DNA of 64,000 nt from Candidatus Limnocylindria bacterium (GTDB lineage Bacteria > Chloroflexota > Limnocylindria > QHBO01). The notes beneath the pieces were generated by a model that was given only the letters and a program-made list of their open reading frames with translations, was not told where the DNA came from and made no database searches. The translations under genes were made by a program, and so were the position numbers. The stretch spans positions 4,590-68,589 of the forward strand of contig DASSCI010000039.1 in assembly GCA_035697845.1 (NCBI GenBank), read 5' to 3'. Positions 16,266-58,303 of the stretch are shown piece after piece; position 1 is the first letter of the stretch; every line of letters starts with the position of its first letter.

Positions 16266-16862
16266 TCAGCTGCTCCCCGGCTTACGCACTGGGATCCCGG
16301 CGGTGCACAGCTCGCAGGCGTCCGGCTCCCACGAGGGAATCTCGATACGACCCAGCGCGTGCAGCGGGAACCCGAGCTCGATGGGCGCCGTGGAACGGTC
16401 GACGATGACTGCCGCGGCCACCGGCTCGACGCCCGCGGCTCGCACGGCCTCCACCGTCTCGACCAGGGACGCGCCGGTGGTGAGGATGTCATCCACGATC
16501 ACCACGCGCTCATCGGCGCCGACCGTCCAGCCTCGGCGCAGGGCCCGCCCGCCGGAGGGAATCGCCTCGGCGAAGGCAGCGCGCACGAAGCCGCCCAGCT
16601 GGCGGGCCGTCTCGAACGACAGCAGCACGCCGCCGGTCGTCGGTCCGACCACCAGGGTTGGCGAGTGGGGCGCCAGGAGCTCCGCGAACCGGCGGCAGAT
16701 CTCCACGCCGAAGCGCGGATGCTGAAGGACGAGGAACTTCTCCAGGTAGCGGCCGGCATGACGGCCCGACTTCAGGAGGAAGTGCCCCTCGAGGAGCGCA
16801 CCCGAGCGAACGAACAGCGACTCGACCGAGGCGCCGGCAAGGGACGCATCGGCGTCGGTCAT
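16266..16862 (-). CDS. pyrE: Orotate phosphoribosyltransferase
   Basis: PRPP-binding motif VVIVDDILTTGASL; ~198 aa type-I PRTase. The start codon overlaps the upstream gene's stop (ATGA). Confidence 0.8.
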   Translation of the reverse strand: MTDADASLAGASVESLFVRSGALLEGHFLLKSGRHAGRYLEKFLVLQHPRFGVEICRRFAELLAPHSPTLVVGPTTGGVLLSFETARQLGGFVRAAFAEAIPSGGRALRRGWTVGADERVVIVDDILTTGASLVETVEAVRAAGVEPVAAAVIVDRSTAPIELGFPLHALGRIEIPSWEPDACELCTAGIPVRKPGSS

Positions 16863-17692
16863 TCGTAGACTGCGGTGAAGTCGACCGCCGGGTAGCGCTC
16901 GGCCAGCGCTTCGGTCACCCAGTGCAGGACGTCGGCGGGATCGTAGAAGGCGGCGATGACCTTGGCTTCCGTCACCGACAACCCAGGACGTTGTGCCTCA
17001 ACGCCGCCCACCACGTCCTCCGGTCGATCGGACAGGTCCAGCGACGTCTCGAAGCGGCCATCGGGCCGCAGGACGAGCACGTCCTCCGCTTCGTCGAGCA
17101 GCACCAGCTCGCCGGTCCGACGGAGTACCTCCTCGGCATTCGCGCTGAACTCGCGCAGGTGCTGCGCCTGGGCCGTCGAGAGCTGGAGGCGGTACGCATC
17201 GGCCAGCTGCCAGAGGCGCTGCGCGGCCAGGGTCTCCTGCTGCGATGGCGACAGATCCGCCTCCCAGTCGTCGCCGAACTCGCCGAGCTCCTCCTCGCGC
17301 TTGAGGTCGTCGGCAGCGACCAGGTGCGATGGGGCGTCGCGCGATGTCTCGATCAGCCAGGCGAAGATGTCGGCCGGGTTGTACAGCTCGACCAGCTCGC
17401 TGATCGTCTCGACCAGCTGCTCCTGGTCGTACCACTCGTTGTCCGCCGGATCCTGGTAGGTGAGCCGGGTGGTCCAGGTCTCGTCGACGGGGTGGTAGAG
17501 CAGGTAGTCCTGCTCGTCGTCGACCAGCTTGATGGGGCCGATCTCCCGCAACCGCTCGCGGTTCTGGTCCAGGAAGCGGCGCAGCTGCTCGGTGGCCTCG
17601 TACAGGAAGTCGCGGCGCTCCAGCTCCGCCTCGCCGGCCAGCTCGCGGAGGGCAACCAGTCGCGGCGACCCGCCGCCCGGTGAGCGGCTCAC
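16859..17692 (-). CDS. Acidic hypothetical protein with internally duplicated Y-[ND]-PAD-[IV]-x-x-W-[LV]-x-E motif
   Basis: GTG start overlaps the upstream stop (GTGA). The motif occurs twice: YNPADIFAWLIETS and YDPADVLHWVTEAL. No family recognised. Confidence 0.45.
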   Translation of the reverse strand: MSRSPGGGSPRLVALRELAGEAELERRDFLYEATEQLRRFLDQNRERLREIGPIKLVDDEQDYLLYHPVDETWTTRLTYQDPADNEWYDQEQLVETISELVELYNPADIFAWLIETSRDAPSHLVAADDLKREEELGEFGDDWEADLSPSQQETLAAQRLWQLADAYRLQLSTAQAQHLREFSANAEEVLRRTGELVLLDEAEDVLVLRPDGRFETSLDLSDRPEDVVGGVEAQRPGLSVTEAKVIAAFYDPADVLHWVTEALAERYPAVDFTAVYE

Positions 17693-18015
17693 GGCTTGAA
17701 GACGAAGTCGGGGCCCATCCGCTCGCGCAGGAAGATCGTGTGCTTCGAGTCGAACACCGACTCGGCCACGCGGTGCCCGAAGCCGCGCATGGATGGATCG
17801 GCGTAGAGCTTGTCGAGCACCGCGTAATTCGGCAGGTCCACGATGATCACGTTGTTCCAGGTCGAGCCCTCGGTGACGTTGAACCAACCGACGAAGCGCA
17901 CGCCGTACTTCTCCTCCGTCTGACGGGCGGTCCTCGGAAAGATGTGGCGCATGCCGCGCTTGAAGATCGTGTCGCGGCCCTTGCGCACGTTGAAGAAGGT
18001 GACCATCAGGGGCAT
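17689..18015 (-). CDS. Small hypothetical protein (108 aa)
   Basis: MPLMVTFFNVRKG...; translationally coupled to the downstream acidic protein and pyrE. Confidence 0.45.
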   Translation of the reverse strand: MPLMVTFFNVRKGRDTIFKRGMRHIFPRTARQTEEKYGVRFVGWFNVTEGSTWNNVIIVDLPNYAVLDKLYADPSMRGFGHRVAESVFDSKHTIFLRERMGPDFVFKP

Positions 18016-18099
18016 CAGGCTTGCCCTCGATTCGACTGCGAGATCACGACGCCGATGATGAACCTCACCCAGAGGCCGAGAGAGGCCACGTTCCGCTTC

Positions 18100-18414
18100 T
18101 CATTCATCGGTCTGGTCCTCATCCGTGCTGATTATCCGAGTCTGCGGCTTCGCGATGCCGGTCTGGCGGCCCCTTCCGCGCCGCCGGTCGGCGAAGAAGA
18201 CGCGCAGCAGGAAGACGCTGGTCATGCTGACGAAGAAGAGCAGGAACAGTGCTGCAAAGAGCAGGACCGCCAGCAGCCAGACCGGCCAGTTGAACGTGAA
18301 CAGCCCGATCGGGATGAGGAAGAGCAGGATCGCGAACAAGATCGCCTGTGTGATGAAGCATCCGAATCCCGGGCCCTCGTTCGGGTCGAGGTCCTCGTTG
18401 TAGCGAACTGACAA
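18100..18414 (-). CDS. Small membrane protein (2-3 TM), hypothetical
   Basis: Hydrophobic core ILFAILLFLIPIGLFTF...LLAVLLFAALFLLFFV with charged tails. Confidence 0.4.
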   Translation of the reverse strand: MSVRYNEDLDPNEGPGFGCFITQAILFAILLFLIPIGLFTFNWPVWLLAVLLFAALFLLFFVSMTSVFLLRVFFADRRRGRGRQTGIAKPQTRIISTDEDQTDE

Positions 18415-18513
18415 GCCGATTCCTCAAGGAATTTGGCGGGGCGTGGGCGGTCCAGATCGTCCCACATCCGGCTCGTCCACGCTCCTGCCGTGCCTGGCCG
18501 TTGATGAGCGCGA

Positions 18514-18586
18514 GGTAAGCGTCCGGTAAGCGTCTGGTAAGGCCGACCGTGCTATCACAGTGTTCAAGAGTCTTGAACACTCGTGG
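18514..18586. repeat. Composite intergenic element copy 1: 3 x 11-bp tandem repeat (GGTAAGCGTCY) + spacer + 21-bp palindrome GTGTTCAAGAGTCTTGAACAC
   Basis: Direct inspection of the sequence. The reverse complement of the same ~70-bp architecture occurs at 56959-57029. Confidence 0.7.
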
Positions 18587-18616
18587 GACCGTGCTGCCCG
18601 GGAGCAGGAGACTCGA

Positions 18617-19944
18617 TCAAGACCGATACGTCACGCGCCCATCGGCGACGGTGAGCCGTACGACGCCGGGCAGCTCCATATCCACGAGCGGCGAATTGGC
18701 CGATGCAGACCCCAGCGTCGTCGCATCGACCCGCCAGCCAGCAGCCGGATCGAAAGCGACGAGATCGGCCCGCTCGCCGGTGCGCAATCCGCGCTTCTCA
18801 CCAACGATCGCCGCCGGCCGCGTCGACAGCGCTGCCAGGAGCGCCGACAAGCTCAGGCGTCCGGCCTCGACCGTGAGAAGGCCGACGCTGAGGGCGGTCT
18901 CGAGGCCGATGAGCCCGGGTGCGGCCTGCGCGAACGGCACCAGCTTGCTCTCGGCCGGGTGCGGAGCATGGTCGGTGGCGATGGCGTCCACCGCTCCGTC
19001 GGCGACCCCTGCCAGCAAGGCCATCGCGTCGTCGCGTGAGGCGAGCGGCGGGTTCACCCGGCAGCGACCGTCGTAGGCAAGCTCCGAGCGCGGGTCCGCC
19101 TCTTCCCAGGCGAAACGGCGCGAGCCGGCGACCCATTCGTCGGTGAGCGCCAGGTGGTGCGGCGTCACGTCGCAGGTCACCGCCACGCCGCGCGCTTTCG
19201 CGGCGCGGACAGCGTCAAGCGAGCGCGCCGTGGACAGGTGGGTGAGGTGCAGCCGTGCATGCGCCGCCTCGGCCAGAGCGATGTCGCGCTCGACGATCGC
19301 CACCTCGGCCTCCGGTGGCCAGGGAGCCAGGCCGAGGCGCGTGGCCGCCGGTCCTGCGCGCATGACGCCGCCCCCGGCGACGGACGCATCCTCGGCATGC
19401 TCGAACAACGGCAGGCCGAGCGGTGCGAGTCGCGCGAGCAGGTCGGCTGTCAGCGCGGCCGATGGAACGGCCGCCCCGTCATCGGACACGCCGATGGCGC
19501 CCGCGCGCCCCAATTCCTCGACCGCGGTGAGCTCGCCTCCCGCGCGGCGCCGGGTTGCCGCAGCGATGACGCGCACGCGCGCCGACGCCGGTGCCGCGAC
19601 CACCGCACCAACGGCATCGGCCGAGTCAAGCGGCGGATCGGTGTTCGGCATGGCGCACACCGTGGTGAATCCGCCGTGGGCGGCAGCGCGGGTGCCGCTG
19701 GCAATGGTCTCCGCCCCGCTGATGCCCGGCTCTCGGAGGTGAGCGTGCAGATCGCAGAAGCCGGGCGCGATGACCCAGCCCGATGCATCGATCCGCTCGG
19801 CATCGTCGGCCGCCTCGACGACCAGCCCGTCGCGCACGGCGATGTCCCTCTCCTCGTCGCTGCCGTCCGACGGGTCGATCACCCGGCCGCCGACCAGCAC
19901 GAAGGTGGCGGGTCGATCGGTCAGCAGGCCGAAACGAGCGTCCC

Positions 19945-19948
<4 letters not shown>
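18617..19948 (-). CDS. pyrC: Dihydroorotase
   Basis: Metal-binding motif DLHAHLREPG and amidohydrolase-family similarity. Overlaps the pyrB stop. Confidence 0.85.
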
Positions 19949-21455
<1,507 letters not shown>

Positions 21456-27063: not shown

Positions 27064-27582
27064 ATGGGAGCCGACACCGTGAACCTTGGCAGCACTCTTC
27101 GAGGAATCGCCTTTGCCATTGGCGGACTGCTCGTCCTGGCGGGCGTGGCGTTCGCCACCAGCGACCGGGGAACCGATGACGTCGCCGGTGCCTCGCCCAG
27201 CGCCCCGGCAGTAGCCACCTTCGGCGGCAGCGTCAGCGCCGATCCGACTGCGAGCGCCAGCGCGGAAGCCGGCGCCAGCGCCGATTCCGCGGCGACCGCC
27301 AGCGGGGCCCCATCGGCCACTGCAGACGCCACGGCCAGCGCGGATCCGAGCGCCAGCCCCGAGACAGCGGCATTCGGCGCGGCGTCGCCGAGCGCATCAG
27401 GCGACGACCATGGCGGCATCGACAATTCCGGTCCGGGCAACGCCGAAGACGACGACGACGAGGACAACTCGGGCCCCGGCAACGGGGATGACGACGACCG
27501 CGACGACAGCTCCGGTCCGGGCCACGGCGGCGACGACGATGGGTCGGACGACGACAGCTCCGGGCACGGCAGCGACGACTGA
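27064..27582 (+). CDS. Secreted/membrane-anchored low-complexity protein with acidic D-x-SGPG repeat tail
   Basis: N-terminal TM/signal (IAFAIGGLLVLAGVAFA) and an Ala/Ser-rich linker. C-terminal repeats are DNSGPGNAEDDDDEDNSGPGNGDDDDRDDSSGPGHGGDDDGSDDDSSGHGSDD. Confidence 0.5.
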   Translation: MGADTVNLGSTLRGIAFAIGGLLVLAGVAFATSDRGTDDVAGASPSAPAVATFGGSVSADPTASASAEAGASADSAATASGAPSATADATASADPSASPETAAFGAASPSASGDDHGGIDNSGPGNAEDDDDEDNSGPGNGDDDDRDDSSGPGHGGDDDGSDDDSSGHGSDD

Positions 27583-27590
27583 CTCGGCGC

Positions 27591-28175
27591 GTGACCGCGC
27601 GGATGTGGCAGGCGGCATGGGACGATGAGGGCGTGGATGACACCGCCCTCATCGCCGCGCTGCGCGCCGGTGACCGCGATGCCTTTGCACTCCTCGTCGA
27701 GCGCGAGACGAGCTCGGTCTATCGCGCCTGCCTGCGCATTCTCGGCCGCCCGCACGACGCCGAAGACGTGACCCAGGAGAGCTTCGTGGCTGCCTACCGC
27801 GCCATCGGCCAGTTTCGATCGGAGGGCTCCCTGCGCGGGTGGCTGCTGCGGATCGCCACCCGCCAGTGCTTCCGTCGGCTCGCGCAACGCCGGCCGGCCG
27901 CCGACCTCGGCGCCATCGGCGATGGGCTGCTCGTCGACACGTCTGCGGAACCGGCGCGCGTCGCGGTCGCCGCCGAGGCGCGAGACGAGATCCGGGCCGC
28001 CGTTGCCGCGCTCGATGATCCGTACCGCGAGGTGGTGGCCCTGCGCTTCTTCGGCGACATGTCGCTGGCCGAGGTGGCCGAGACCACGGGGCGACCGATC
28101 AACACCGTGAAGACGCATCTGCGCCGCGGCCTCGAGCGGCTGCGCCCCGTATTTGCTTCCGAGGTGGACCGATGA
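27591..28175 (+). CDS. ECF RNA polymerase sigma factor
   Basis: Region 2 (DVTQESFVAAYRAIGQF) and region 4 (LSLAEVAETTGRPINTVKTHLRRG). Confidence 0.85.
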   Translation: MTARMWQAAWDDEGVDDTALIAALRAGDRDAFALLVERETSSVYRACLRILGRPHDAEDVTQESFVAAYRAIGQFRSEGSLRGWLLRIATRQCFRRLAQRRPAADLGAIGDGLLVDTSAEPARVAVAAEARDEIRAAVAALDDPYREVVALRFFGDMSLAEVAETTGRPINTVKTHLRRGLERLRPVFASEVDR

Positions 28176-33528: not shown

Positions 33529-33921
33529 ATGAACGATATGGACAGATTCCGGCGGCGACCGCCGATGGAAGGGTTCTCGCGCCCGGGTTCGCTGGGCGGC
33601 GAGGCATACGATGACGACTCAGTGGAGGGTCACATGATGGACGACGATCGCACCCAGGACATCGACACCGAGGGCCACGCCTTCGTCCGCCGCGCGGATG
33701 AGAGCGACGACACCGAGGGTCACGCGTTCACCCGTCGCGCGGACGACAGCGACGATACCGAGGGCCACGCCTTCACCCGCCGAGCGGATGATGACGAGGA
33801 CACCGAGGGCCACGCGTTCACGCGTCGAGCCGACGACGAGGACGACACGGAAGGTCACGCCGGCTGGCTGAAGGCCACCGACGAGGACGACACAGAGGGC
33901 CACGTCTCCAAGATCAAGTAG
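33529..33921 (+). CDS. Small acidic tandem-repeat protein: six copies of a ~15-aa unit D-[DE]-x-D-T-E-G-H-A-F-[TV]-R-R-A-D
   Basis: Protein is MNDMDRFRRRPP...DTEGHAFVRRADESDDTEGHAFTRRADDSDDTEGHAFTRRADDDEDTEGHAFTRRADDEDDTEGHAGWLKATDEDDTEGHVSKIK. The 45-bp DNA repeats differ at synonymous positions. AGGAGG RBS upstream; the start may be ATG 33529 or 33538. Confidence 0.6.
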   Translation: MNDMDRFRRRPPMEGFSRPGSLGGEAYDDDSVEGHMMDDDRTQDIDTEGHAFVRRADESDDTEGHAFTRRADDSDDTEGHAFTRRADDDEDTEGHAFTRRADDEDDTEGHAGWLKATDEDDTEGHVSKIK

Positions 33922-47880: not shown

Positions 47881-50434
47881 GCGCGCGGTGCAGGAAGGCC
47901 GCCATCTGCTCACGGCTCACGGCACTGCCCGGGCAGTAGGTGGACGGACCACATCCGCGCGTGATCCCGCTCGCGGCGAGCGCGTTGATGTCGGCCTGGT
48001 GCGGCGAGGCCGAGTCATCGGTGAAGAAGTCGGTCCCGGACGCCGGGAGCCTGAGAGCCCGCACCAGGAACGAGGCCATCTCCTCGCGCGTGACCGCCCG
48101 GTCCGGGCAGTAGACGCGCCACCCGCAGCCGAGCGTGATGCCTGCCGCCGCCAGGGCGTTGATGTCGGCCTGGTGCAGGCCCGCGTCGTCGTCGAAGTAG
48201 TCGGTGCCCGCACCCGGCAGGCCGAGCGCGCGGACGAGGAACGAGGCCATCTGCGCACGAGTCACGGCGTCCGTGGGGCAGAACATCCCGCTTCCGCAGC
48301 CGATGGTGATGGCGCGCTGCGCGATCCACAGGATGTCGTCATAGAACGGCGATCCGGCGGCATCCGAGAAGGGGCTCGTCATGGCCCACGCCAGCCCGAA
48401 CGGCTCCTCGGCAGCGTTGAAGCGCGGCTGAAGGATCTCGATCCGCATCACTCCCGTGGCTGCCGCCGAGATGTCGACCACCTCGTACGGGTTGTCGTAG
48501 CTGATCGAGAGGCCCGGTGCGCCGCTCGGCATGGTCACGCGCAGGTCGAGATCGGCGGTGAGCACGTCCGCCTTCCCCAGGTTCGTGCCCGAGGTATGGC
48601 TGCTCCAGGCGAGGGCGACCCGAACCTGCTGGCCGGCCACGACCGGGACCTCCTGCACGATCGACTCGCCGGGATGCGCGGCGCCGATGCGGTAGCCGCC
48701 CCATGGACCGTTGCCGTTGACCAGGATCCGGTTCGACCACACCGCCGACGCCGTTCCGACGCCCTCGTGATCGTTGTTCGCGCCGCCGCCGGGCAGCGGC
48801 GTGCGGCGAAGTGCTCCGGCCATGAGGATGGCGCGCGTCCCTTCCGGCCACACCGCCAGCGACGGTGCACGAGCCAGCAGCTGCGCCGCCAGGCCGGCGA
48901 CGATCGGGCTGGCCACGCTGGTGCCATCGCCCGAGATGCCGTTGGCGGTTCGCACGCTCACCGCGGGAGCGGAGAGGTTCGGCTTGTTGTAGTCGCCGTG
49001 AGGGTTCCATGCCGTACCGCCCAGGTCGACGTAGTTCGCGCCGTTGACGCCGGGCCGATACCACAGGATGTCGTCGGCGGTGCCGGCGGAGTTGCGGTCG
49101 TCGATGCCGCCGACGGTCAGCACGTTGTATCCGGTGCCCGGCGAGACGACGTTCCAGTTCCCGAAGGTGGTGAAGTTTCCGGACGAGGCGACGACGAGGC
49201 GGTTGCCCTCCCAGCCGATCGAGTCGAAGTAGCGACGCGCCTCCTCCGCGCCCTGCGCGGTGTCCTGGCCGATGCTGGCGTTGAGGATGTCGGCGTTCCC
49301 GCCGCCCGGTGCAACGGCCCAGTCCGCGGCGGCGATGATGGCCCGGTCGTAGGCCAGGCTCGGCGTGTAGCCACCGGTCCCGGCCGAGACGATGACCGCG
49401 CCGGGAGCGACGCCGCCGTACGTCCCGTTCTGGCTGGCGATCGCACCCGCGACCCAGGTGGGATGCCCGCCGACGACGGTCGTTCCGCTGGTCGAATAGC
49501 TGGCGGCGACCTTGCCCGCCAGGTCGCCCGAGTTCGAGACGTTGTGGTACTCCACGATGCCGACGCGGACGCCGCTGCCCTGGTCGCCGCCGTCGCCCGT
49601 CCAATCGGCGCCGATCGCCGGGCCGGCGGAGGACATCTGCGCCTCCCATTGCTCCTCGAGGCCCAGGCTCAGGACGTCGGCGCGCGCGGCGAGCCCCGCC
49701 ACCGCCGGGGCGGGCACGTCCAGGAACACGAGCGGGGCGGAGGTGCTGGCGTAGCCGATGCCGCCGCCGGCGGCCTCCACCGCCGGACGGAACGCGTTGG
49801 CGGCCGCCTCGTAGGTCGCCCGCCGCGCCTCCCACAGCTCGGCGCGCAGGGCGCGGACCTGCTCGATCGATTCGGCCATTGGCCGGCCGGCGACCCAGGT
49901 GATCTCCGGATGTGCGTCGCGCACCGCGGCCTCCGCCGCGGCCGGATCGGCATCCAGCCAGACGGCCACGCGCAGCGAGTCGGGCTTGCCGCCGGCGACG
50001 GCTGCCTGGAGTGCGGCATCCGCCTTCCGCTCCAGCGCGGGGAGATCCTTGGCGGCTGCCGCCGAGCGCTCCTCGCGCAGGCCCGCTCCGGCCGTGACGC
50101 CGGCCGCAGGATCGCTGTCGACGGCGACGATCTCACCGGTCGTCCGATCCAGGAACTTCCCGGCCCAGAGCGTCGCATCGGAGTGCTCGACCGCGGCGTC
50201 GCGTTCGTAGAGCAGCTCGAAGTCGTTCGGCGATCCGCCGCGCGTCTCGGCCAGATGGCGTGCCGCAGCCGCAGCTGGCGGCTCCGCGGCACGCGCCGTC
50301 CCGCCGGGCACCAATACCGTCCCACCCACGACCAGCGAAATCACGAGCGCCCCCCCACGGGCGAGCGCGCGCGGTCTGCGACTGCGCACTTTCAGCCTCT
50401 CTCGTTCGTAAGACGCCGTATGACAGTCTTGCAT
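47870..50434 (-). CDS. Secreted S8 subtilisin-like peptidase with three C-terminal Cys-containing SLH-like repeats
   Basis: Signal peptide after MQDCHTASYERERLKVRSRRPRALARGGALVISLVVGG. S8 Ser motif GTSVASPIVAG. Three ~60-aa C-terminal repeats follow the pattern F.DD....H..DI..LA..GIT.GCG...YCP...VTR.QMA.FL.RAL.LP. Confidence 0.75.
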   Translation of the reverse strand: MQDCHTASYERERLKVRSRRPRALARGGALVISLVVGGTVLVPGGTARAAEPPAAAAARHLAETRGGSPNDFELLYERDAAVEHSDATLWAGKFLDRTTGEIVAVDSDPAAGVTAGAGLREERSAAAAKDLPALERKADAALQAAVAGGKPDSLRVAVWLDADPAAAEAAVRDAHPEITWVAGRPMAESIEQVRALRAELWEARRATYEAAANAFRPAVEAAGGGIGYASTSAPLVFLDVPAPAVAGLAARADVLSLGLEEQWEAQMSSAGPAIGADWTGDGGDQGSGVRVGIVEYHNVSNSGDLAGKVAASYSTSGTTVVGGHPTWVAGAIASQNGTYGGVAPGAVIVSAGTGGYTPSLAYDRAIIAAADWAVAPGGGNADILNASIGQDTAQGAEEARRYFDSIGWEGNRLVVASSGNFTTFGNWNVVSPGTGYNVLTVGGIDDRNSAGTADDILWYRPGVNGANYVDLGGTAWNPHGDYNKPNLSAPAVSVRTANGISGDGTSVASPIVAGLAAQLLARAPSLAVWPEGTRAILMAGALRRTPLPGGGANNDHEGVGTASAVWSNRILVNGNGPWGGYRIGAAHPGESIVQEVPVVAGQQVRVALAWSSHTSGTNLGKADVLTADLDLRVTMPSGAPGLSISYDNPYEVVDISAAATGVMRIEILQPRFNAAEEPFGLAWAMTSPFSDAAGSPFYDDILWIAQRAITIGCGSGMFCPTDAVTRAQMASFLVRALGLPGAGTDYFDDDAGLHQADINALAAAGITLGCGWRVYCPDRAVTREEMASFLVRALRLPASGTDFFTDDSASPHQADINALAASGITRGCGPSTYCPGSAVSREQMAAFLHRALTR

Positions 50435-54684: not shown

Positions 54685-55431
54685 TCAGCGCACGTCCCGC
54701 CGGCGCGCGACGTCATCGGCGCCGTTGAGCAGGTCGCTCACGAACGCCAATGGTCGCCAGCGCGGAAGGGTGGGCTGCTGGCGCGGAAGCAGCTCGAGGA
54801 TCCCCTCGCGCACCGCGCGCTCGAGCGCAGCTCTCGCCTCGCGGCCGCGGGTCGCACCCGCCTCGATCGGCGCACCGAACCGGATGTCGACGCGCTTGCG
54901 GAGCCAGAGGTCCGTGCTGCCGACGATCGCGCATGGAACGACTGGGACCGCGGATGCGGCGGCGAACGCGGTCGCACCCTCCTCGAACGGCAACAGGGAG
55001 GTCTCGTCGAAGCCGATGCGCCCCTCGGCGAAGATGCCGAGCACGCCATCGGCGTCGAAGACTCGCCGGACCGCCCGAACCGCCGACGTCATGGTGGTCC
55101 CGGCGGGGTCGTACGGGATCATGCCGCCGAAGAAGGCCATGATCCTGTTCTTGAAGCCGCGGCTGAAGTCGGCCTCGCGCGGCCCGAACCAGGTGATGCG
55201 CGGCTCCATCGGCGTGACCGCGATCACGAGCAGAGGGTCCCAGCCGTTGTGGTGGTTGGCGACGAGCTGAAACGGTCCCGCGGGCCAGTTCTCGAGCCCG
55301 CTGACGCGGACGTCGAACAGTGGCCGGACCAGCGCGCGAACGAGCCAGCGCATGAGCCGGTAGCGCGGCGTCACGGACACGCTCAGCTCGCGCGGTCCCG
55401 TGCGGCGGACGCGATCGGTGACGGCGTTCAC
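54685..55431 (-). CDS. 1-acyl-sn-glycerol-3-phosphate acyltransferase family protein (PlsC-like)
   Basis: HxxxxD motif NHHNGWD and an FAEGRI motif. Confidence 0.75.
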   Translation of the reverse strand: MNAVTDRVRRTGPRELSVSVTPRYRLMRWLVRALVRPLFDVRVSGLENWPAGPFQLVANHHNGWDPLLVIAVTPMEPRITWFGPREADFSRGFKNRIMAFFGGMIPYDPAGTTMTSAVRAVRRVFDADGVLGIFAEGRIGFDETSLLPFEEGATAFAAASAVPVVPCAIVGSTDLWLRKRVDIRFGAPIEAGATRGREARAALERAVREGILELLPRQQPTLPRWRPLAFVSDLLNGADDVARRRDVR

Positions 55432-56825
55432 GCCGCCACTGCCCGTTGTTCGTCCGCGCGCGACGGGCTTCCCGCACGGACCGGCTCACGAACGCGGCGC
55501 AGCGCCAGCGCCCCGAGCCCGAGCTCGAGGGCCATGACGACGAACAGCGCGCGGAAGCCCAGCTCGGCGGCCACCGTCCGATCGGCGATGAAGAGGGCCA
55601 CCGCGAAGGTGATCAGTCCGCCGATGGTCGAGCCGATCGGCCCTGCGCTGGCGACGGCGATGTTGCTGATGCCCATGTATCGGCCCGATGCCGCCTTGGG
55701 AATGATGTCCGTCATCAACGCCCAGTCGACGCCGAGGAAGACGCCGGTGCAGAGCCCGATGGGCACCGCCGCCGCGAGCACCATCCAATAGGCGGGCGCG
55801 AACGCCAGCATCAGTCCGCCCACGGCGCCGAAGCCGATGGCGACATACAGGACCGGCTTGCGGCCGATTCGGTTCGAGATCCGCCCGCCCGGCACGGAGC
55901 TGATGAGCGCCGCGGCAAGCATCAGGACGAGCACCGGGAAGCTGGCGCCCTGCGCCTCGTCCGGCCCCATGCGATGAGCGTTCTCCAGGTAGAAGACCGC
56001 GAACGCCTGGAGCGTCACGAGGCCGGTCAGCACGAGCAGGCGGCTGACCATGACCCACACGAAGTCCTTCTCTTCGAGGATGTCCGTGCCCCATGCCGAC
56101 TTTGCGCGCTCGAGGAGGCCCAGCTCATTGGGCGGTGCCGGTCGGTCGGGGACCCAGATGACGGTGATGAGCATGGTCACCACCTCGATGAGACCGATGG
56201 TCACGAACAGCCCGAGCGTGATTTCCGGGAAGCCGAGGACGCCCGGCAGGACGGTGATGAACAGGATCGCCAGGCCCGGCCCGAGCAGGTTGCCGGCGAT
56301 GTTGGCGCCGCCCAGGAGGCCGGATGCGAGCCCGACCTGGTGCGAGGGCACGAGGTCCGGGACGTAGCCCTGGTAGGGGCCCTGCGCGAAGTTGCTGCTG
56401 AACTGGAGGCACGCGACCGCGATGAGGAACGGCCAGTACAGCTCGTTCCAGAAGGCCCACGCAAGGAACGCCAGGAACACGAGGTCCATCAGCGTGCCGG
56501 CCACGATGAACGGCTTGCGCCGCCCGAGCCGATGCTGGGTTCGGTCGCTGATGGCTCCCATGGTCGGCTGCACGACGATGGCGATGAGCACCCCGGCCGT
56601 GGTGATGGCGCCGACGGCGAGTCCAGCCAGCGGGTGGTTCGAGTTCCCGAGCACCGACTCCACCAGGCGCGGGATGACGCTGAAGGTGAGCGCTCCCATC
56701 AGGGTCGTGATGGCCAGCCAGTAGGCGGTGACCGCCAGGAGCCGCCCGGTCGACAGCTCGGCCTTCGGCCGGCCGAACTCGTCGCGGTCGTCCGCAGCCG
56801 TCGCAGGTGCCGCCGATTCGAGCAT
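55428..56825 (-). CDS. MFS transporter
   Basis: 12-TM topology with MFS loop motif GRRKPF. Start set at MLESAAP (the track ORF starts upstream, inside the repeat element). Confidence 0.7.
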   Translation of the reverse strand: MLESAAPATAADDRDEFGRPKAELSTGRLLAVTAYWLAITTLMGALTFSVIPRLVESVLGNSNHPLAGLAVGAITTAGVLIAIVVQPTMGAISDRTQHRLGRRKPFIVAGTLMDLVFLAFLAWAFWNELYWPFLIAVACLQFSSNFAQGPYQGYVPDLVPSHQVGLASGLLGGANIAGNLLGPGLAILFITVLPGVLGFPEITLGLFVTIGLIEVVTMLITVIWVPDRPAPPNELGLLERAKSAWGTDILEEKDFVWVMVSRLLVLTGLVTLQAFAVFYLENAHRMGPDEAQGASFPVLVLMLAAALISSVPGGRISNRIGRKPVLYVAIGFGAVGGLMLAFAPAYWMVLAAAVPIGLCTGVFLGVDWALMTDIIPKAASGRYMGISNIAVASAGPIGSTIGGLITFAVALFIADRTVAAELGFRALFVVMALELGLGALALRRVREPVRAGSPSRADEQRAVAA

Positions 56826-56958
56826 GCCGTGGCCTCGTCGTGGTGTGGTGCGCAGCCTACGGCCGCGCGTTGGCGAGCACCATGGGTCACCGGCACTGCG
56901 GCCCGAATGCGGGCGGCTTGCTCCAGCCTTCTGGCGCCTCGAGGGCAGCGCCGTGCCG

Positions 56959-57029
56959 CGAGTGTTCAAGACTCTTGAACACTGTGATACCACCGGCCGC
57001 TTACCGGCCGCTTACCGGCCGCTTACCGG
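56959..57029. repeat. Composite intergenic element copy 2 (reverse orientation): palindrome GTGTTCAAGACTCTTGAACAC + spacer + 3 x CGGCCGCTTAC
   Basis: Reverse complement matches the architecture at 18514-18586. ~30 bp (GAGTGTTCAAGACTCTTGAACACTGTGATA) is identical between the two copies. Confidence 0.7.
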
Positions 57030-57058
57030 TCCCTATCGGCCGCGTACCCTGAGCGCTC

Positions 57059-58303
57059 ATGTCGACCGATCCGGCGGAAGGCCGGCTCATCGTCCTGCGC
57101 CATCCCGACCTGCGTCGCTACCTGACGGCTCGCTTCATCGCGTCCATCGCCACCCAGGTCCAGACCGTCGCCGTCGGCTGGCAGGTCTTCCGGGCCACGG
57201 GCGACCCCTTCGACCTGGGCCTGGTGGCGCTATCGCAGTTCCTGCCCTTCGTGCTGCTCATCCTGCCGGCCGGACATGTCGCCGACCGATACGATCGGCG
57301 CCGCATCCAGCTCGTGACGTACGTGCTGCTGGCGGCCTGCGCCGCGGCGCTGTTCGGTCTCGCGCTGTCCGGAAACATCGATACCGGGCCCGTCTTCGCC
57401 GTGATGGTGCTGTTCGGCACCGCGCGCGCCTTCAATCACCCCGTCGGCCAGGCGCTCCTGCCGAACCTGGCCCCGATCACGCTGTTTCCTCGCGCCGTTG
57501 CCGTCAACTCGTCGCTCGGTCAGGTCGCCACCATCGCGGGGCCGGCGATCGGCGGCGCGCTGGTCCTGTTCGGAGAGCAGGTGGCGTTCGGGCTCTCGCT
57601 CGTGCTGCTGGTGGCCGCGGTGGTGCTGGTCGCAGGGCTGCGCGGAGGTGGTCGCACCGAAGCCTCGACCGAACCGGTGTCGTGGGCGGCATTGCTCACG
57701 GGCGTCAACTTCGTGCGCAGCCGTCCGATCGTGCTTGGCTCGATCTCGCTCGACCTGTTCGCGGTCCTGTTCGGCGGGGCGGAGGCGCTGCTGCCCATTT
57801 ATGCCGGTGAGATCCTCGATGTTGGACCGGTCGGCCTGGGCATCATGCGGGCCGCTCCGGCGGTCGGTGCCGGCGTCCTCGCGGCAGTCGTGGCTGTGCG
57901 CCCCATCCGGCGCAACGTGGGCAGATGGATGTTCGGCGGCGTCATCGTGTTCGGGATCGCCACCATGCTCTTCGGCGTGTCGACCAGCTTCCCACTGAGC
58001 GTGGCGGCGCTGGTCGTGATGGGGGCCGGCGACATGGTCAGCGTGTACATCCGCCACCTGCTCGTGCAGCTCGAGACGCCCGATGCGATCCGGGGTCGCG
58101 TGAGCGCGGTCAACTCGGTGTTCATCGGCGCATCCAACGAGCTCGGTGAGTTCGAGTCGGGCATCACCGCGTCGTGGTGGGGGATCGTCCCGGCCGTTGT
58201 CGTCGGCGGAGCGGCGACGCTCGCGGTCGCCGCGACCTGGACTCGCGTCTTCCCGGTTCTGCGACGCCTCGACCGTTTCCCCGAGCCTGAGGACGTGCCC
58301 TAG
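57059..58303 (+). CDS. MFS transporter (EntS/MFS_3-like)
   Basis: 12 TM and a DRYDRRR loop motif. Confidence 0.8.
   Translation: MSTDPAEGRLIVLRHPDLRRYLTARFIASIATQVQTVAVGWQVFRATGDPFDLGLVALSQFLPFVLLILPAGHVADRYDRRRIQLVTYVLLAACAAALFGLALSGNIDTGPVFAVMVLFGTARAFNHPVGQALLPNLAPITLFPRAVAVNSSLGQVATIAGPAIGGALVLFGEQVAFGLSLVLLVAAVVLVAGLRGGGRTEASTEPVSWAALLTGVNFVRSRPIVLGSISLDLFAVLFGGAEALLPIYAGEILDVGPVGLGIMRAAPAVGAGVLAAVVAVRPIRRNVGRWMFGGVIVFGIATMLFGVSTSFPLSVAALVVMGAGDMVSVYIRHLLVQLETPDAIRGRVSAVNSVFIGASNELGEFESGITASWWGIVPAVVVGGAATLAVAATWTRVFPVLRRLDRFPEPEDVP

What the first reader, a model, noticed from the sequence alone, without database searches (positions are those of the whole stretch)
56959..57029. Second copy of the composite palindrome/tandem-repeat element in the divergent MFS-MFS promoter region
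This is the same element as at 18514-18586 in inverted orientation. It occupies the 233-bp divergent region between MFS genes at 55428-56825 (-) and 57059-58303 (+). It could be a shared operator for the two transporters. The six-frame track's long ORFs starting inside it (MVSQCSRVLNTRG...) are artefacts of the palindrome.
Basis: seen in the sequence. Interest (0 to 1): 0.5.

Follow-up and report, generated by a model that had tools for sequence, protein, structure and literature searches.

The report
Dispersed palindrome-repeat element in Limnocylindria
The palindrome plus 11-base repeats between the two transporter genes is real, but it is one copy of a roughly 110-base non-coding element scattered in front of a dozen unrelated housekeeping genes in a small group of uncultured soil Chloroflexota; a close relative lacks it at this promoter, so it is an acquired, probably protein-binding module and not a dedicated switch for these transporters.

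Summary
A perfect 23-bp palindrome lies at 56961-56983. It is followed by about five 11-nt units (GCTTACCGGNC) and preceded by a conserved 21-25-nt arm (GGGCAGC...). The same composite occurs, inverted, at 18514-18606.

It is not specific to the MFS pair. The palindrome occurs at 12 distinct intergenic loci in two related Candidatus Limnocylindria MAGs; 10 carry the whole composite. The flanking genes are unrelated housekeeping genes (pyrC, glyA, purH, hom and others).

Relatives have empty sites at three loci. One genome that carries the element at pyrC lacks it between the MFS genes, yet keeps both core promoters. So the element is an insertion/deletion unit of about 120 nt. At this locus it sits just upstream of the -10 of the apparently leaderless MFS_3 gene.

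The palindrome is far better conserved than the rest of the element (60/66 against 181/306 positions). It shows no compensatory changes, so its sequence is read, most likely by a dimeric DNA-binding protein.

One lead is a NanR-like GntR regulator whose start codon lies inside one copy. On its coding strand the array reads (GGTAAG-N5)3.

No terminal inverted repeats, target duplication or transposase were found. I file it as a new variant of small dispersed bacterial repeats, of moderate interest.

The parts
56914..57036 (+). Segment present in the window, L017 and L043 but absent from the orthologous MFS-MFS spacer of L040 (and of L042): the insertion/deletion unit at copy 2
   Evidence: MAFFT alignment A3; raw sequences
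56936..56960 (+). Left arm of the element, consensus (GCTCC)CGGGCAGC-RCC-KTCC-NNN-GA. GGGCAGC is at 56943-56949, a fixed 12 nt from the palindrome
   Evidence: Anchored comparison of 10 paralogous loci; alignment A2
56961..56983 (.). Perfect 23-bp palindrome AGTGTTCAAGA-C-TCTTGAACACT, the invariant core of the family and the putative dimeric protein-binding site
   Evidence: Identical at 21 Limnocylindria loci. Conserved 60/66 against 181/306 for the rest of the element in protein-anchored orthologues
56992..57048 (+). Array of 11-nt units (GCTTACCGGNC): three exact units then two degenerate ones. It reads GGTAAG-N5 on the opposite strand. The number of units varies between loci and species (2-6)
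   Evidence: the repeat finder D1/D2; TRF 5.3 copies; the arrays occur only next to the palindrome
57045..57050 (+). Inferred -10 box TACCCT of MFS_3, 8 nt before the ATG at 57059 (leaderless-type promoter). It predates the element
   Evidence: TAnnnT is conserved at the same place in L017, L043, L040, L041 and L042; the inference rests on conservation only
56854..56859 (-). Inferred -10 box (TAGGCT on the minus strand) of MFS_1, 28 nt before its ATG (56825)
   Evidence: Conserved in L017, L043 and L040; TAnnnT variants in L041 and L042
56894..56913 (.). Ancestral conserved block CACTGCGGCCCGAATGCGGG between the two core promoters. It is also present in relatives that lack the element, and the element separates it from the MFS_3 promoter
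   Evidence: Invariant columns in A3, including L040 and L042
55428..56825 (-). MFS_1-family transporter gene
   Evidence: Pfam PF07690, 2.7e-43
57059..58303 (+). MFS_3 / EntS-like transporter gene
   Evidence: Pfam PF05977, 1.2e-32; NCBIfam EntS-like, below cut-off
18484..18612 (-). Copy 1 of the element, as the segment absent from the pyrC-orf104 spacer of L044 and L045. Palindrome 18559-18581, left arm 18582-18606, 11-nt array 18514-18545
   Evidence: alignment A4

Best explanation
Copy 2 belongs to a previously undescribed family of small (about 100-125 bp), non-coding, dispersed intergenic repeats. The family is confined to a subclade of soil Candidatus Limnocylindria (Chloroflexota). Each full copy has four parts: a 21-25-nt left arm (GGGCAGC...), an invariant AT-rich 23-bp palindrome, a spacer of about 18 nt, and 2-6 tandem 11-nt units.

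Shown: copies were gained or lost as whole units at individual loci. At the MFS locus the unit lies between two pre-existing back-to-back core promoters. It abuts the region upstream of the -10 of the apparently leaderless MFS_3 gene, and it pushes an older conserved block about 125 nt away.

Inferred: the palindrome is held constant because a sequence-specific dimeric DNA-binding protein reads it, and the 11-nt array is a second, cooperative binding platform. The element would then act as an acquired cis-regulatory or architectural module shared by a dozen unrelated promoters, not as a private MFS operator.

The best candidate reader is a NanR-like FadR-subfamily GntR regulator, but the evidence for it is weak. 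Its start codon lies inside the palindrome at one locus. Its coding strand carries (GGTAAG-N5)3 just upstream.

The confidence given is for the whole statement.
For: Family and distribution
- The exact 21-mer is found at 21 loci in two Limnocylindria MAGs, which make 12 distinct loci. Ten carry the full composite.
- Further copies come from soil metagenomes of the same lineage.
- There are none in about 125 kb from seven outgroup Limnocylindria loci.
- Neighbouring genes are unrelated housekeeping genes.
- TTAY x3 arrays at 11-nt period occur 19 times, always 14-42 nt from a palindrome.

Indel nature
- The element is absent between the MFS genes in L040, which is on the same contig as the element-bearing pyrC locus L037.
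- There are empty sites at pyrC in L044 and L045, and at glyA in L046-L048.

Constraint on the palindrome
- In protein-anchored orthologues, which are free of ascertainment bias, the palindrome is conserved at 60/66 positions against 181/306 for the rest of the element (Fisher p = 1.7e-7).
- 9 of the 12 loci are perfect in both MAGs, although flank identity is only 79-87%.
- The central base differs in 3 of 12 comparisons.
- There are no compensatory pairs. The AGAG variants break a pair instead of compensating it.
- The same T-to-A variant is seen at two loci in more distant genomes.

Pre-existing promoters
- TAnnnT lies 6-11 nt before the ATG and is conserved in filled and empty sites.

GntR lead
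-. NanR binds a (GGTATA)3 direct-repeat operator as three dimers (PMC8012715).
Against: - No binding protein has been shown.
- All 22 non-central positions are invariant, and no degenerate sites turned up in 220 kb. That is unusual for a transcription-factor regulon.
- The position of the palindrome relative to start codons ranges from about -36 to about -140. There is no single promoter geometry.
- The phase of the array relative to the palindrome is only loosely kept (Rayleigh p about 0.06).
- The mechanism of spread is unknown: no convincing terminal inverted repeats or target duplication, no transposase in the window, and no phage source.
- The GntR link rests on one locus. The idea that the family's left arm derives from the GntR 5' end failed a permutation test.
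Confidence: 0.55

Rival explanations
1. The element is a purely selfish non-autonomous mobile element (MITE-, REP- or PATE-like). The palindrome is the recognition hairpin or site of its mobilising enzyme. Its uniformity reflects recent activity or gene conversion between copies, not a host function.
For: - Filled and empty sites at three loci.
- Restriction to a narrow clade.
- All-or-nothing copies, with no degenerate sites.
- Local instability: variable unit number and a 40-nt tandem amplification in L020.
- The same variant shared by two loci in other genomes, as expected for concerted evolution.
- Pneumococcal BOX, RUP and SPRITE repeats were judged parasitic on similar grounds (PMC3049150).
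Against: - Copies sit at orthologous positions in at least five species-level genomes. Their arms and arrays have diverged (54-66% identity), yet the palindrome is 86-95% identical. Old selfish relics should decay evenly.
- No terminal inverted repeats, target duplication or transposase were found (Pfam).
- Copy number is low: 10-11 per MAG.
Confidence: 0.22
2. One reading: a dedicated operator shared by the two divergent MFS transporter genes.
For: It is a dyad-symmetric site lying between two divergent genes of the same superfamily.
Against: - The same composite lies next to at least ten other, unrelated gene pairs.
- It is absent from the orthologous spacer in L040, L041 and L042, where both promoters are intact.
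- There is no adjacent regulator gene.
- An older conserved block (56894-56913) is the better candidate for an ancestral shared site.
Confidence: 0.05
3. The element is a structured RNA: a small RNA, a 5'-UTR element, or an intercistronic stabiliser or processing hairpin. The palindrome would act as an RNA stem-loop.
For: - The region folds better than shuffles (z = -3.8 and -3.5 for copy 2, -2.1 and -1.5 for copy 1).
- Copy 1 lies inside the pyr gene string and is probably transcribed.
Against: - 0 of 14 predicted pairs show compensatory change, and the variant copies break a pair.
- There is no Rfam match, even at E up to 1.
- No terminator-like T run.
- At MFS_3, glyA and Nha the element lies upstream of the inferred transcription start.
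- The element occurs in either orientation relative to its neighbours.
Confidence: 0.07
4. The palindrome is a chromosome-level site of the parS, Ter, matS or recombination type. It would be bound by a lineage-specific partition, fork-arrest or recombinase protein, and the flanks would be accessory sites.
For: - About a dozen near-identical long sites per genome, with a free central base.
- Two copies 38 kb apart in inverse orientation.
Against: - Gene order and orientation between pyrC and MFS_3 are the same in the window (37 kb apart) and in a relative with only one of the two copies (41 kb apart). No inversion between the copies has been fixed.
- Sites were gained as 110-nt cassettes at promoters, which is not how known parS or Ter sites arise.
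- All copies are intergenic, and none lies between convergent genes.
- Clustering along the chromosome cannot be assessed from fragmented MAGs.
Confidence: 0.06

Closest known systems
Pneumococcal BOX elements (with RUP and SPRITE), small interspersed repeats of Streptococcus pneumoniae (PMC3049150)
   Same: Both are short, non-coding, modular and intergenic. Both have an internal module present in a variable number of tandem copies. Both are confined to a narrow clade, show slow gain and loss at orthologous sites, and have no known mobilising enzyme. Both may affect neighbouring genes.
   Different: There is no sequence relationship and the phylum differs. The variable module here is only 11 nt (boxB is about 45 nt). 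The core here is one perfect 23-bp palindrome under strong sequence constraint. Copy number is about 10 times lower.
REP/BIME elements and REPINs with RAYT transposases (Enterobacteria, Pseudomonas); from my own knowledge
   Same: Extragenic palindromes dispersed through the chromosome. Host proteins (IHF, gyrase) bind some composite forms, and a dedicated protein recognises the hairpin.
   Different: REPs are imperfect palindromes present in hundreds of copies. They are often inverted doublets, typically at 3' ends or between convergent genes. Here the palindromes are single and perfect, number about a dozen, lie mostly upstream of genes, and no RAYT was seen.
MITEs that bring regulatory sites to promoters, for example Neisseria Correia elements; from my own knowledge
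   Same: About 100-150 bp, non-coding, with filled and empty site polymorphism. They insert next to promoters, where they can supply or displace promoter and binding sites.
   Different: Correia elements and other MITEs have terminal inverted repeats and a target-site duplication. Neither could be shown here.
FadR-subfamily GntR operators, especially the E. coli NanR (GGTATA)3 direct-repeat operator (PMC8012715)
   Same: Three or more direct repeats carry a GGTA-type hexamer (GGTAAG on the GntR coding strand). The only regulator gene next to any copy is a FadR-subfamily GntR whose best NCBIfam match is the NanR subfamily. The array lies 25-50 nt upstream of that gene's start.
   Different: The repeat period here is 11 nt. 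The regulator is far below the NanR family cut-off (58 against 260 bits). The NanR operator has no accompanying 23-bp palindrome and is not dispersed as a cassette. Binding is untested.
Helically phased direct-repeat sites: OmpR/PhoB-type response-regulator boxes and plasmid iterons such as R1 parC; from my own knowledge
   Same: Tandem units of about one helical turn (11 bp), in variable number. At three loci they overlap the -35 region.
   Different: There is no fixed distance to the -10 across loci, no response regulator or partition gene nearby, and the units occur only together with the palindrome.

Membership tests
MITE (miniature inverted-repeat transposable element) | Many dispersed, short, non-coding copies | tested here: met
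   12 loci in two MAGs plus 2 in the window; about 100-125 bp; no ORF
MITE (miniature inverted-repeat transposable element) | Filled and empty sites among related genomes | tested here: met
   MFS, pyrC and glyA loci
MITE (miniature inverted-repeat transposable element) | Terminal inverted repeats shared by the copies | tested here: not met
   Conservation ends about 21-25 nt left of the palindrome and after the last 11-nt unit. An inverted GGGCAG/CTGCCC pair is seen only at 2-3 loci
MITE (miniature inverted-repeat transposable element) | Target-site duplication | tested here: inconclusive
   A possible CGGC at the MFS locus, nothing at pyrC; the junctions are blurred by small indels
MITE (miniature inverted-repeat transposable element) | Related autonomous element with a transposase | not tested
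   No transposase among about 55 window genes (Pfam).
REP / REPIN-RAYT | Imperfect palindromes in hundreds of copies, often as inverted doublets | tested here: not met
   Single perfect palindromes, 10-11 per MAG
REP / REPIN-RAYT | RAYT gene flanked by the repeats | not tested
   None seen in the loci held; not searched genome-wide
Dedicated operator of the divergent MFS pair | Conserved in the orthologous promoter region of relatives | tested here: not met
   Absent in L040, L041 and L042, with both promoters conserved
Dedicated operator of the divergent MFS pair | Specific to this promoter or to a functionally coherent regulon | tested here: not met
   The neighbours are pyrC, glyA, purH, hom, proC/manC, IMPase, Nha and others
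Transcription-factor binding site (general) | Dyad symmetry, with sequence (not structure) conserved beyond the neutral rate and a free centre | tested here: met
Transcription-factor binding site (general) | Identified cognate protein that binds it | not testable with these tools
   Only a candidate exists: a GntR/FCD gene whose start codon lies in the palindrome
NanR-type GntR direct-repeat operator | At least three direct repeats of a GGTA-type hexamer upstream of the regulator gene | tested here: inconclusive
   (GGTAAG-N5)3 lies upstream of the GntR at L011, L005, L031 and L034. The regulator is below the NanR cut-off, and the repeat period could not be compared (the NanR spacing was not retrieved)
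Known RNA family (Rfam 15) | Match to a covariance model | tested here: not met
   No match at gathering score. At E up to 1 there was only a spurious snoRNA hit
Canonical parS | TGTTNCACGTGNAACA-type 16-mer | tested here: not met
   The palindrome differs from it. There is no canonical parS within 3 mismatches in the window

The most novel reading that the evidence does not exclude
The element is a portable operator cassette. On this reading, a module of about 110 bp carries the binding sites of a lineage-specific regulator: the NanR-like GntR on the (GGTAAG-N5)n array, and the same or a second protein on the palindrome. The module has been copied in front of a dozen housekeeping promoters (pyr, glyA, purH, hom, MFS and others). 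A new regulon would then have been built by dispersal of a ready-made cis-element, and the sites would co-evolve with the protein, as the AGAG variant shared by two loci in sister genomes suggests.
Probability: 0.2. Interest if true: 0.7.

Novelty: new variant of a known kind. Interest (0 to 1): 0.4.

Why it matters
Small dispersed repeats are well known in cultivated Proteobacteria and Firmicutes. They are essentially undescribed in soil Chloroflexota, one of the most abundant uncultured soil lineages.

This family shows an unusual contrast. The 23-bp core is frozen, while the arms and repeat array evolve freely, and whole units are gained and lost at promoters of central-metabolism genes. 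If the core is a regulator's site, the family is a natural example of regulon growth by dispersal of a cis-element, and it gives a handle on gene regulation in organisms that cannot be grown.

There are also practical consequences. The element creates spurious long ORFs. It breaks metagenome assemblies (three contigs end exactly at the palindrome). It could be mistaken for a locus-specific operator, as happened here.

Tried and rejected
- Sigma-70 promoter or intrinsic terminator inside the element: none found by consensus scan. Manual checks found no consistent -10 at 16-18 nt from the TTGAAC in either palindrome arm. The GGGCAGC motif does not fit sigma-54 spacing (GG-N10-GC).
- Known RNA family or tRNA-like element: none.
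- RNA structure: no covariation. The closing stems seen in single-sequence folds are not shared between loci.
- The 18.5-57 kb interval as a mobile island bounded by the two inverted copies: rejected. The interval holds ordinary housekeeping genes (suf, ECF sigma factors, rsgA, peptidases). The arrays face outwards. Synteny is kept in a relative that has only one copy.
- Phage origin: a scan of viral contigs gave only chance matches in low-GC phages.
- Published operator: a literature search for the half-site found only shRNA loop sequences.
- Degenerate extra copies: none found by mismatch scan or by an nhmmer model.
- Left arm derived from the GntR 5' coding sequence: not supported (permutation p = 0.13-0.55). 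A left-arm-only HMM has too little information to test it.
- Strict helical phasing of array and palindrome: only a trend (p about 0.06).
- Recalled operators (LexA, Rex, SoxR, HAIR, CRP, DasR, parS): none fits. This is from memory, and only parS was scanned.

Full report
OBSERVATION

The window has 70% G+C. At 56961-56983 lies a perfect 23-bp palindrome, AGTGTTCAAGA-C-TCTTGAACACT, with 11-nt arms and a 1-nt centre. The same 23-mer occurs at 18559-18581. No other site within 3 mismatches exists in the window, and none appeared in 100 shuffles.

To the right of copy 2 there are three exact and two degenerate 11-nt units (GCTTACCGGNC). TRF.3 copies over 56992-57048. Copy 1 carries the same array on the other strand, at 18514-18541. 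Aligned in inverse orientation, the two copies share an identical 30-nt core, an upstream GGGCAGC and the phased CTTACC units.

The flanking genes are MFS_1 (55428-56825, minus strand) and MFS_3 (57059-58303, plus strand).

One correction is needed for copy 1. It lies downstream of pyrC, inside the string pyrR-pyrB-pyrC-[element]-orf104-...-pyrE. It is not in a divergent promoter.

A DISPERSED FAMILY

An exact-match scan of one genome per species found the 21-mer core at 23 places. Twenty-one of them are in two Candidatus Limnocylindria soil MAGs (Chloroflexota), 11 in one and 10 in the other. The other two, in a Gemmatimonadales contig and an "Angelobacter" contig, are a chance match and a probably mis-binned contig. 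A metagenome scan added 12 contigs of the same lineage, and three of those end exactly at the palindrome.

The MAG hits form 12 distinct loci. Nine of these are perfect in both MAGs, and both window copies have orthologues among them.

Ten loci carry the whole composite:
- a left arm (GCTCC)CGGGCAGC-RCC-KTCC-NNN-GA, at a fixed 12 nt from the palindrome;
- the palindrome;
- a spacer of about 18 nt;
- 2-6 units of 11 nt.

Two loci have the palindrome with no unit or only one.

Arrays of three TTAY motifs at 11-nt period occur 19 times in about 250 kb, always 14-42 nt from a palindrome. Neither a mismatch scan (no site with 2-6 mismatches in 220 kb) nor an nhmmer model found degenerate copies.

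The neighbouring genes are unrelated housekeeping genes: pyrC; the two MFS genes; a Na+/H+ exchanger and an aminotransferase; an O-methyltransferase and a PIG-L deacetylase; an IMPase-like gene and a GntR regulator; glyA; a hydrolase and cbiQ; hom and a SnoaL-like gene; purH; manC and proC; a luciferase-like monooxygenase; xdhC and an FAD oxidase. Every copy adjoins at least one gene start, and none lies between convergent genes.

GAINED AND LOST AS A UNIT

I fetched orthologous loci through the flanking proteins. This retrieval does not depend on the palindrome.

pyrC locus. Relatives at 89%, 80% and 77% protein identity keep the element. Relatives at 72% and 69% have a spacer of 67-71 nt without it. 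The stop codon and a downstream conserved block align across the gap.

MFS locus. L017 (98%) and L043 (93%) have the element. L040 (91%) does not: AATGCGGGG is followed directly by CCGGCCGCGTACCCTGAGCGCCCATG. L040 is on the same contig as L037, which carries the pyrC-linked copy. L041 and L042 (82% and 80%) also lack the element.

glyA locus. Three relatives have 10-53 nt upstream of glyA and no element.

Seven outgroup loci, about 125 kb in all, contain neither the palindrome (up to 7 mismatches allowed) nor an array.

The family is therefore confined to a subclade, and its copies are indel units of about 120 nt. At copy 2 the unit spans 56914-57036.

I could not find shared terminal inverted repeats, a clear target duplication, a transposase in the window, or a phage source (Pfam).

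WHAT THE INSERTION DID AT THE MFS LOCUS

In filled and empty genomes alike, a TAnnnT hexamer lies 8-9 nt before the MFS_3 ATG (TACCCT at 57045-57050). Another lies about 28 nt before the MFS_1 ATG (TAGGCT on the minus strand, 56854-56859). The same leaderless-type arrangement, TAnnnT 6-11 nt before the ATG, recurs at glyA, Nha, hom, SnoaL, IMPase and other genes. These promoter assignments are inferences from conservation.

Both core promoters therefore predate the element. The element sits between them. Its array reaches the -35 position of MFS_3. It also separates MFS_3 from an older conserved block, CACTGCGGCCCGAATGCGGG (56894-56913), which is also present in relatives that lack the element. 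That block, not the palindrome, is the better candidate for an ancestral shared site.

THE PALINDROME IS READ AS SEQUENCE

In the protein-anchored orthologues, the 22 non-central positions are conserved at 21/22, 19/22 and 20/22. The rest of the element is 56%, 54% and 66% identical. The totals are 60/66 against 181/306 (Fisher p = 1.7e-7).

Between the two MAGs and the window, flanks are 79-87% identical. The palindrome is unchanged in all 12 comparisons, and its central base differs in 3 of them. If the palindrome diverged like its flanks, having 9 of 12 loci unchanged would have probability below 1e-11. That figure is affected by ascertainment, because these loci were found by exact match.

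RNAalifold finds no compensatory pair. The variant copies (AGAG...) break a pair instead of compensating it. There is no Rfam match.

The same T-to-A change appears at both the pyrC and the MFS locus in more distant genomes. This points to concerted change.

The simplest reading is recognition by a dimeric sequence-specific protein. What argues against an ordinary regulon is the invariance of all 22 positions, the lack of degenerate sites, and the variable distance to start codons (about -36 to -140).

A CANDIDATE PROTEIN

The only regulator next to any copy is a FadR-subfamily GntR (GntR + FCD domains). It is divergent from an IMPase/HisN-like gene.
- Its TTG start lies inside the palindrome (TTG AAC ACT = L/M-N-T) in two diverged orthologues.
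- In a third orthologue the gene starts ATG AAC ACG 28 nt further on, after a partial duplication.
- Its best NCBIfam match is the NanR subfamily, far below the cut-off. NanR, PdhR and YvoA are the nearest solved structures.
- On its coding strand the array reads (GGTAAG-N5)3, 25-50 nt upstream of the start.

E. coli NanR binds a (GGTATA)3 direct-repeat operator as three cooperative dimers (PMC8012715).

This is a lead, not a result. The further idea that the family's left arm is a relic of the GntR 5' end failed a permutation test.

RIVALS

- Purely selfish MITE/REP-like repeat. It fits the indels, the narrow distribution and the local instability (a 40-nt tandem amplification in L020). It resembles the verdict reached for pneumococcal BOX, RUP and SPRITE repeats (PMC3049150). 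It does not explain why only the palindrome resists decay at old orthologous copies.
- Dedicated MFS operator. The distribution and the empty site in L040 contradict it.
- RNA function. It lacks covariation, and several copies lie upstream of the inferred transcription starts.
- parS-, Ter- or recombination-type site. This cannot be excluded from fragmented MAGs. However, gene order and orientation between pyrC and MFS_3 are the same in the window and in a relative with only one copy, and there is no canonical parS.

VERDICT

The feature is real and highly non-random. It is a copy of a lineage-specific dispersed composite repeat with a strongly constrained palindromic core, acquired upstream of a pre-existing promoter.

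It works like the small interspersed repeats known from other phyla. It fails the defining tests for a MITE and for REP. I therefore rate it a new variant of a known kind, with interest 0.4.

The most novel reading not excluded is a portable operator cassette that has built a GntR regulon (probability about 0.2).

Noticed in passing
window 56894-56913: The block CACTGCGGCCCGAATGCGGG between the two MFS core promoters is conserved even in relatives that lack the element (L040, L042). It is a more plausible ancestral shared regulatory site than the palindrome.
   Followed up: partly
window 57045-57061; also L006, L013, L016, L023, L014, L046-L048: Many genes of this lineage have a TAnnnT hexamer 6-11 nt before the ATG and no Shine-Dalgarno sequence. 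This suggests widespread leaderless mRNAs in these Chloroflexota.
   Followed up: partly
L011:4355-4375 with L011:4368-5090; L031:215-949; L034:181-903: The start codon of a NanR-like GntR/FCD regulator lies inside the palindrome. In L034 and L027 a 28-nt partial duplication moves the start (now ATG) beyond it.
   Followed up: partly
L020:3715-3882: 4.2 tandem copies of a 40-nt unit made of the element's left arm plus the left half of the palindrome, next to an array of 6.5 units. This is local amplification within one copy.
   Followed up: partly
window 18437-18475 (minus strand): The block GAGCCGGATGTGGGACGATCTGG upstream of the small membrane ORF (18100-18414) is conserved in all relatives, including those without the element. 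Its role inside the pyr cluster is unknown.
   Followed up: no
L025:2-22, L032:6073-6093, L035:1-21: Three metagenome contigs begin or end exactly at the palindrome, so the repeat apparently breaks short-read assemblies.
   Followed up: no
L009:3407-3427: A contig binned as 'Candidatus Angelobacter' (68% G+C) carries the palindrome with an arm-like flank. It is probably a mis-binned Limnocylindria contig.
   Followed up: no
window 33663-33904; 47955-48311; 27420-27539: There are tandem repeats of 45/90 nt, 171 nt and 42 nt. The first lies inside the ORF at 33529-33921, which has no Pfam family. The second lies inside the S8 peptidase/SLH gene. The third overlaps the short ORF picked at 27397-27618 (-).
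   Followed up: no
window 16266-21413: The pyr cluster runs pyrR-pyrB-pyrC-[element]-orf104-orf59-orf108-orf280-pyrE. It has four conserved ORFs with no Pfam family (the first has hydrophobic, membrane-like stretches) and no carAB. The order is conserved in six relatives.
   Followed up: partly
L036:7539-7561, L037:11366-11388, L043:9893-9915: More distant genomes share the same asymmetric palindrome variant (AGAGTTC...) at two different loci. This suggests concerted evolution of the copies, or co-evolution with a binding protein.
   Followed up: partly
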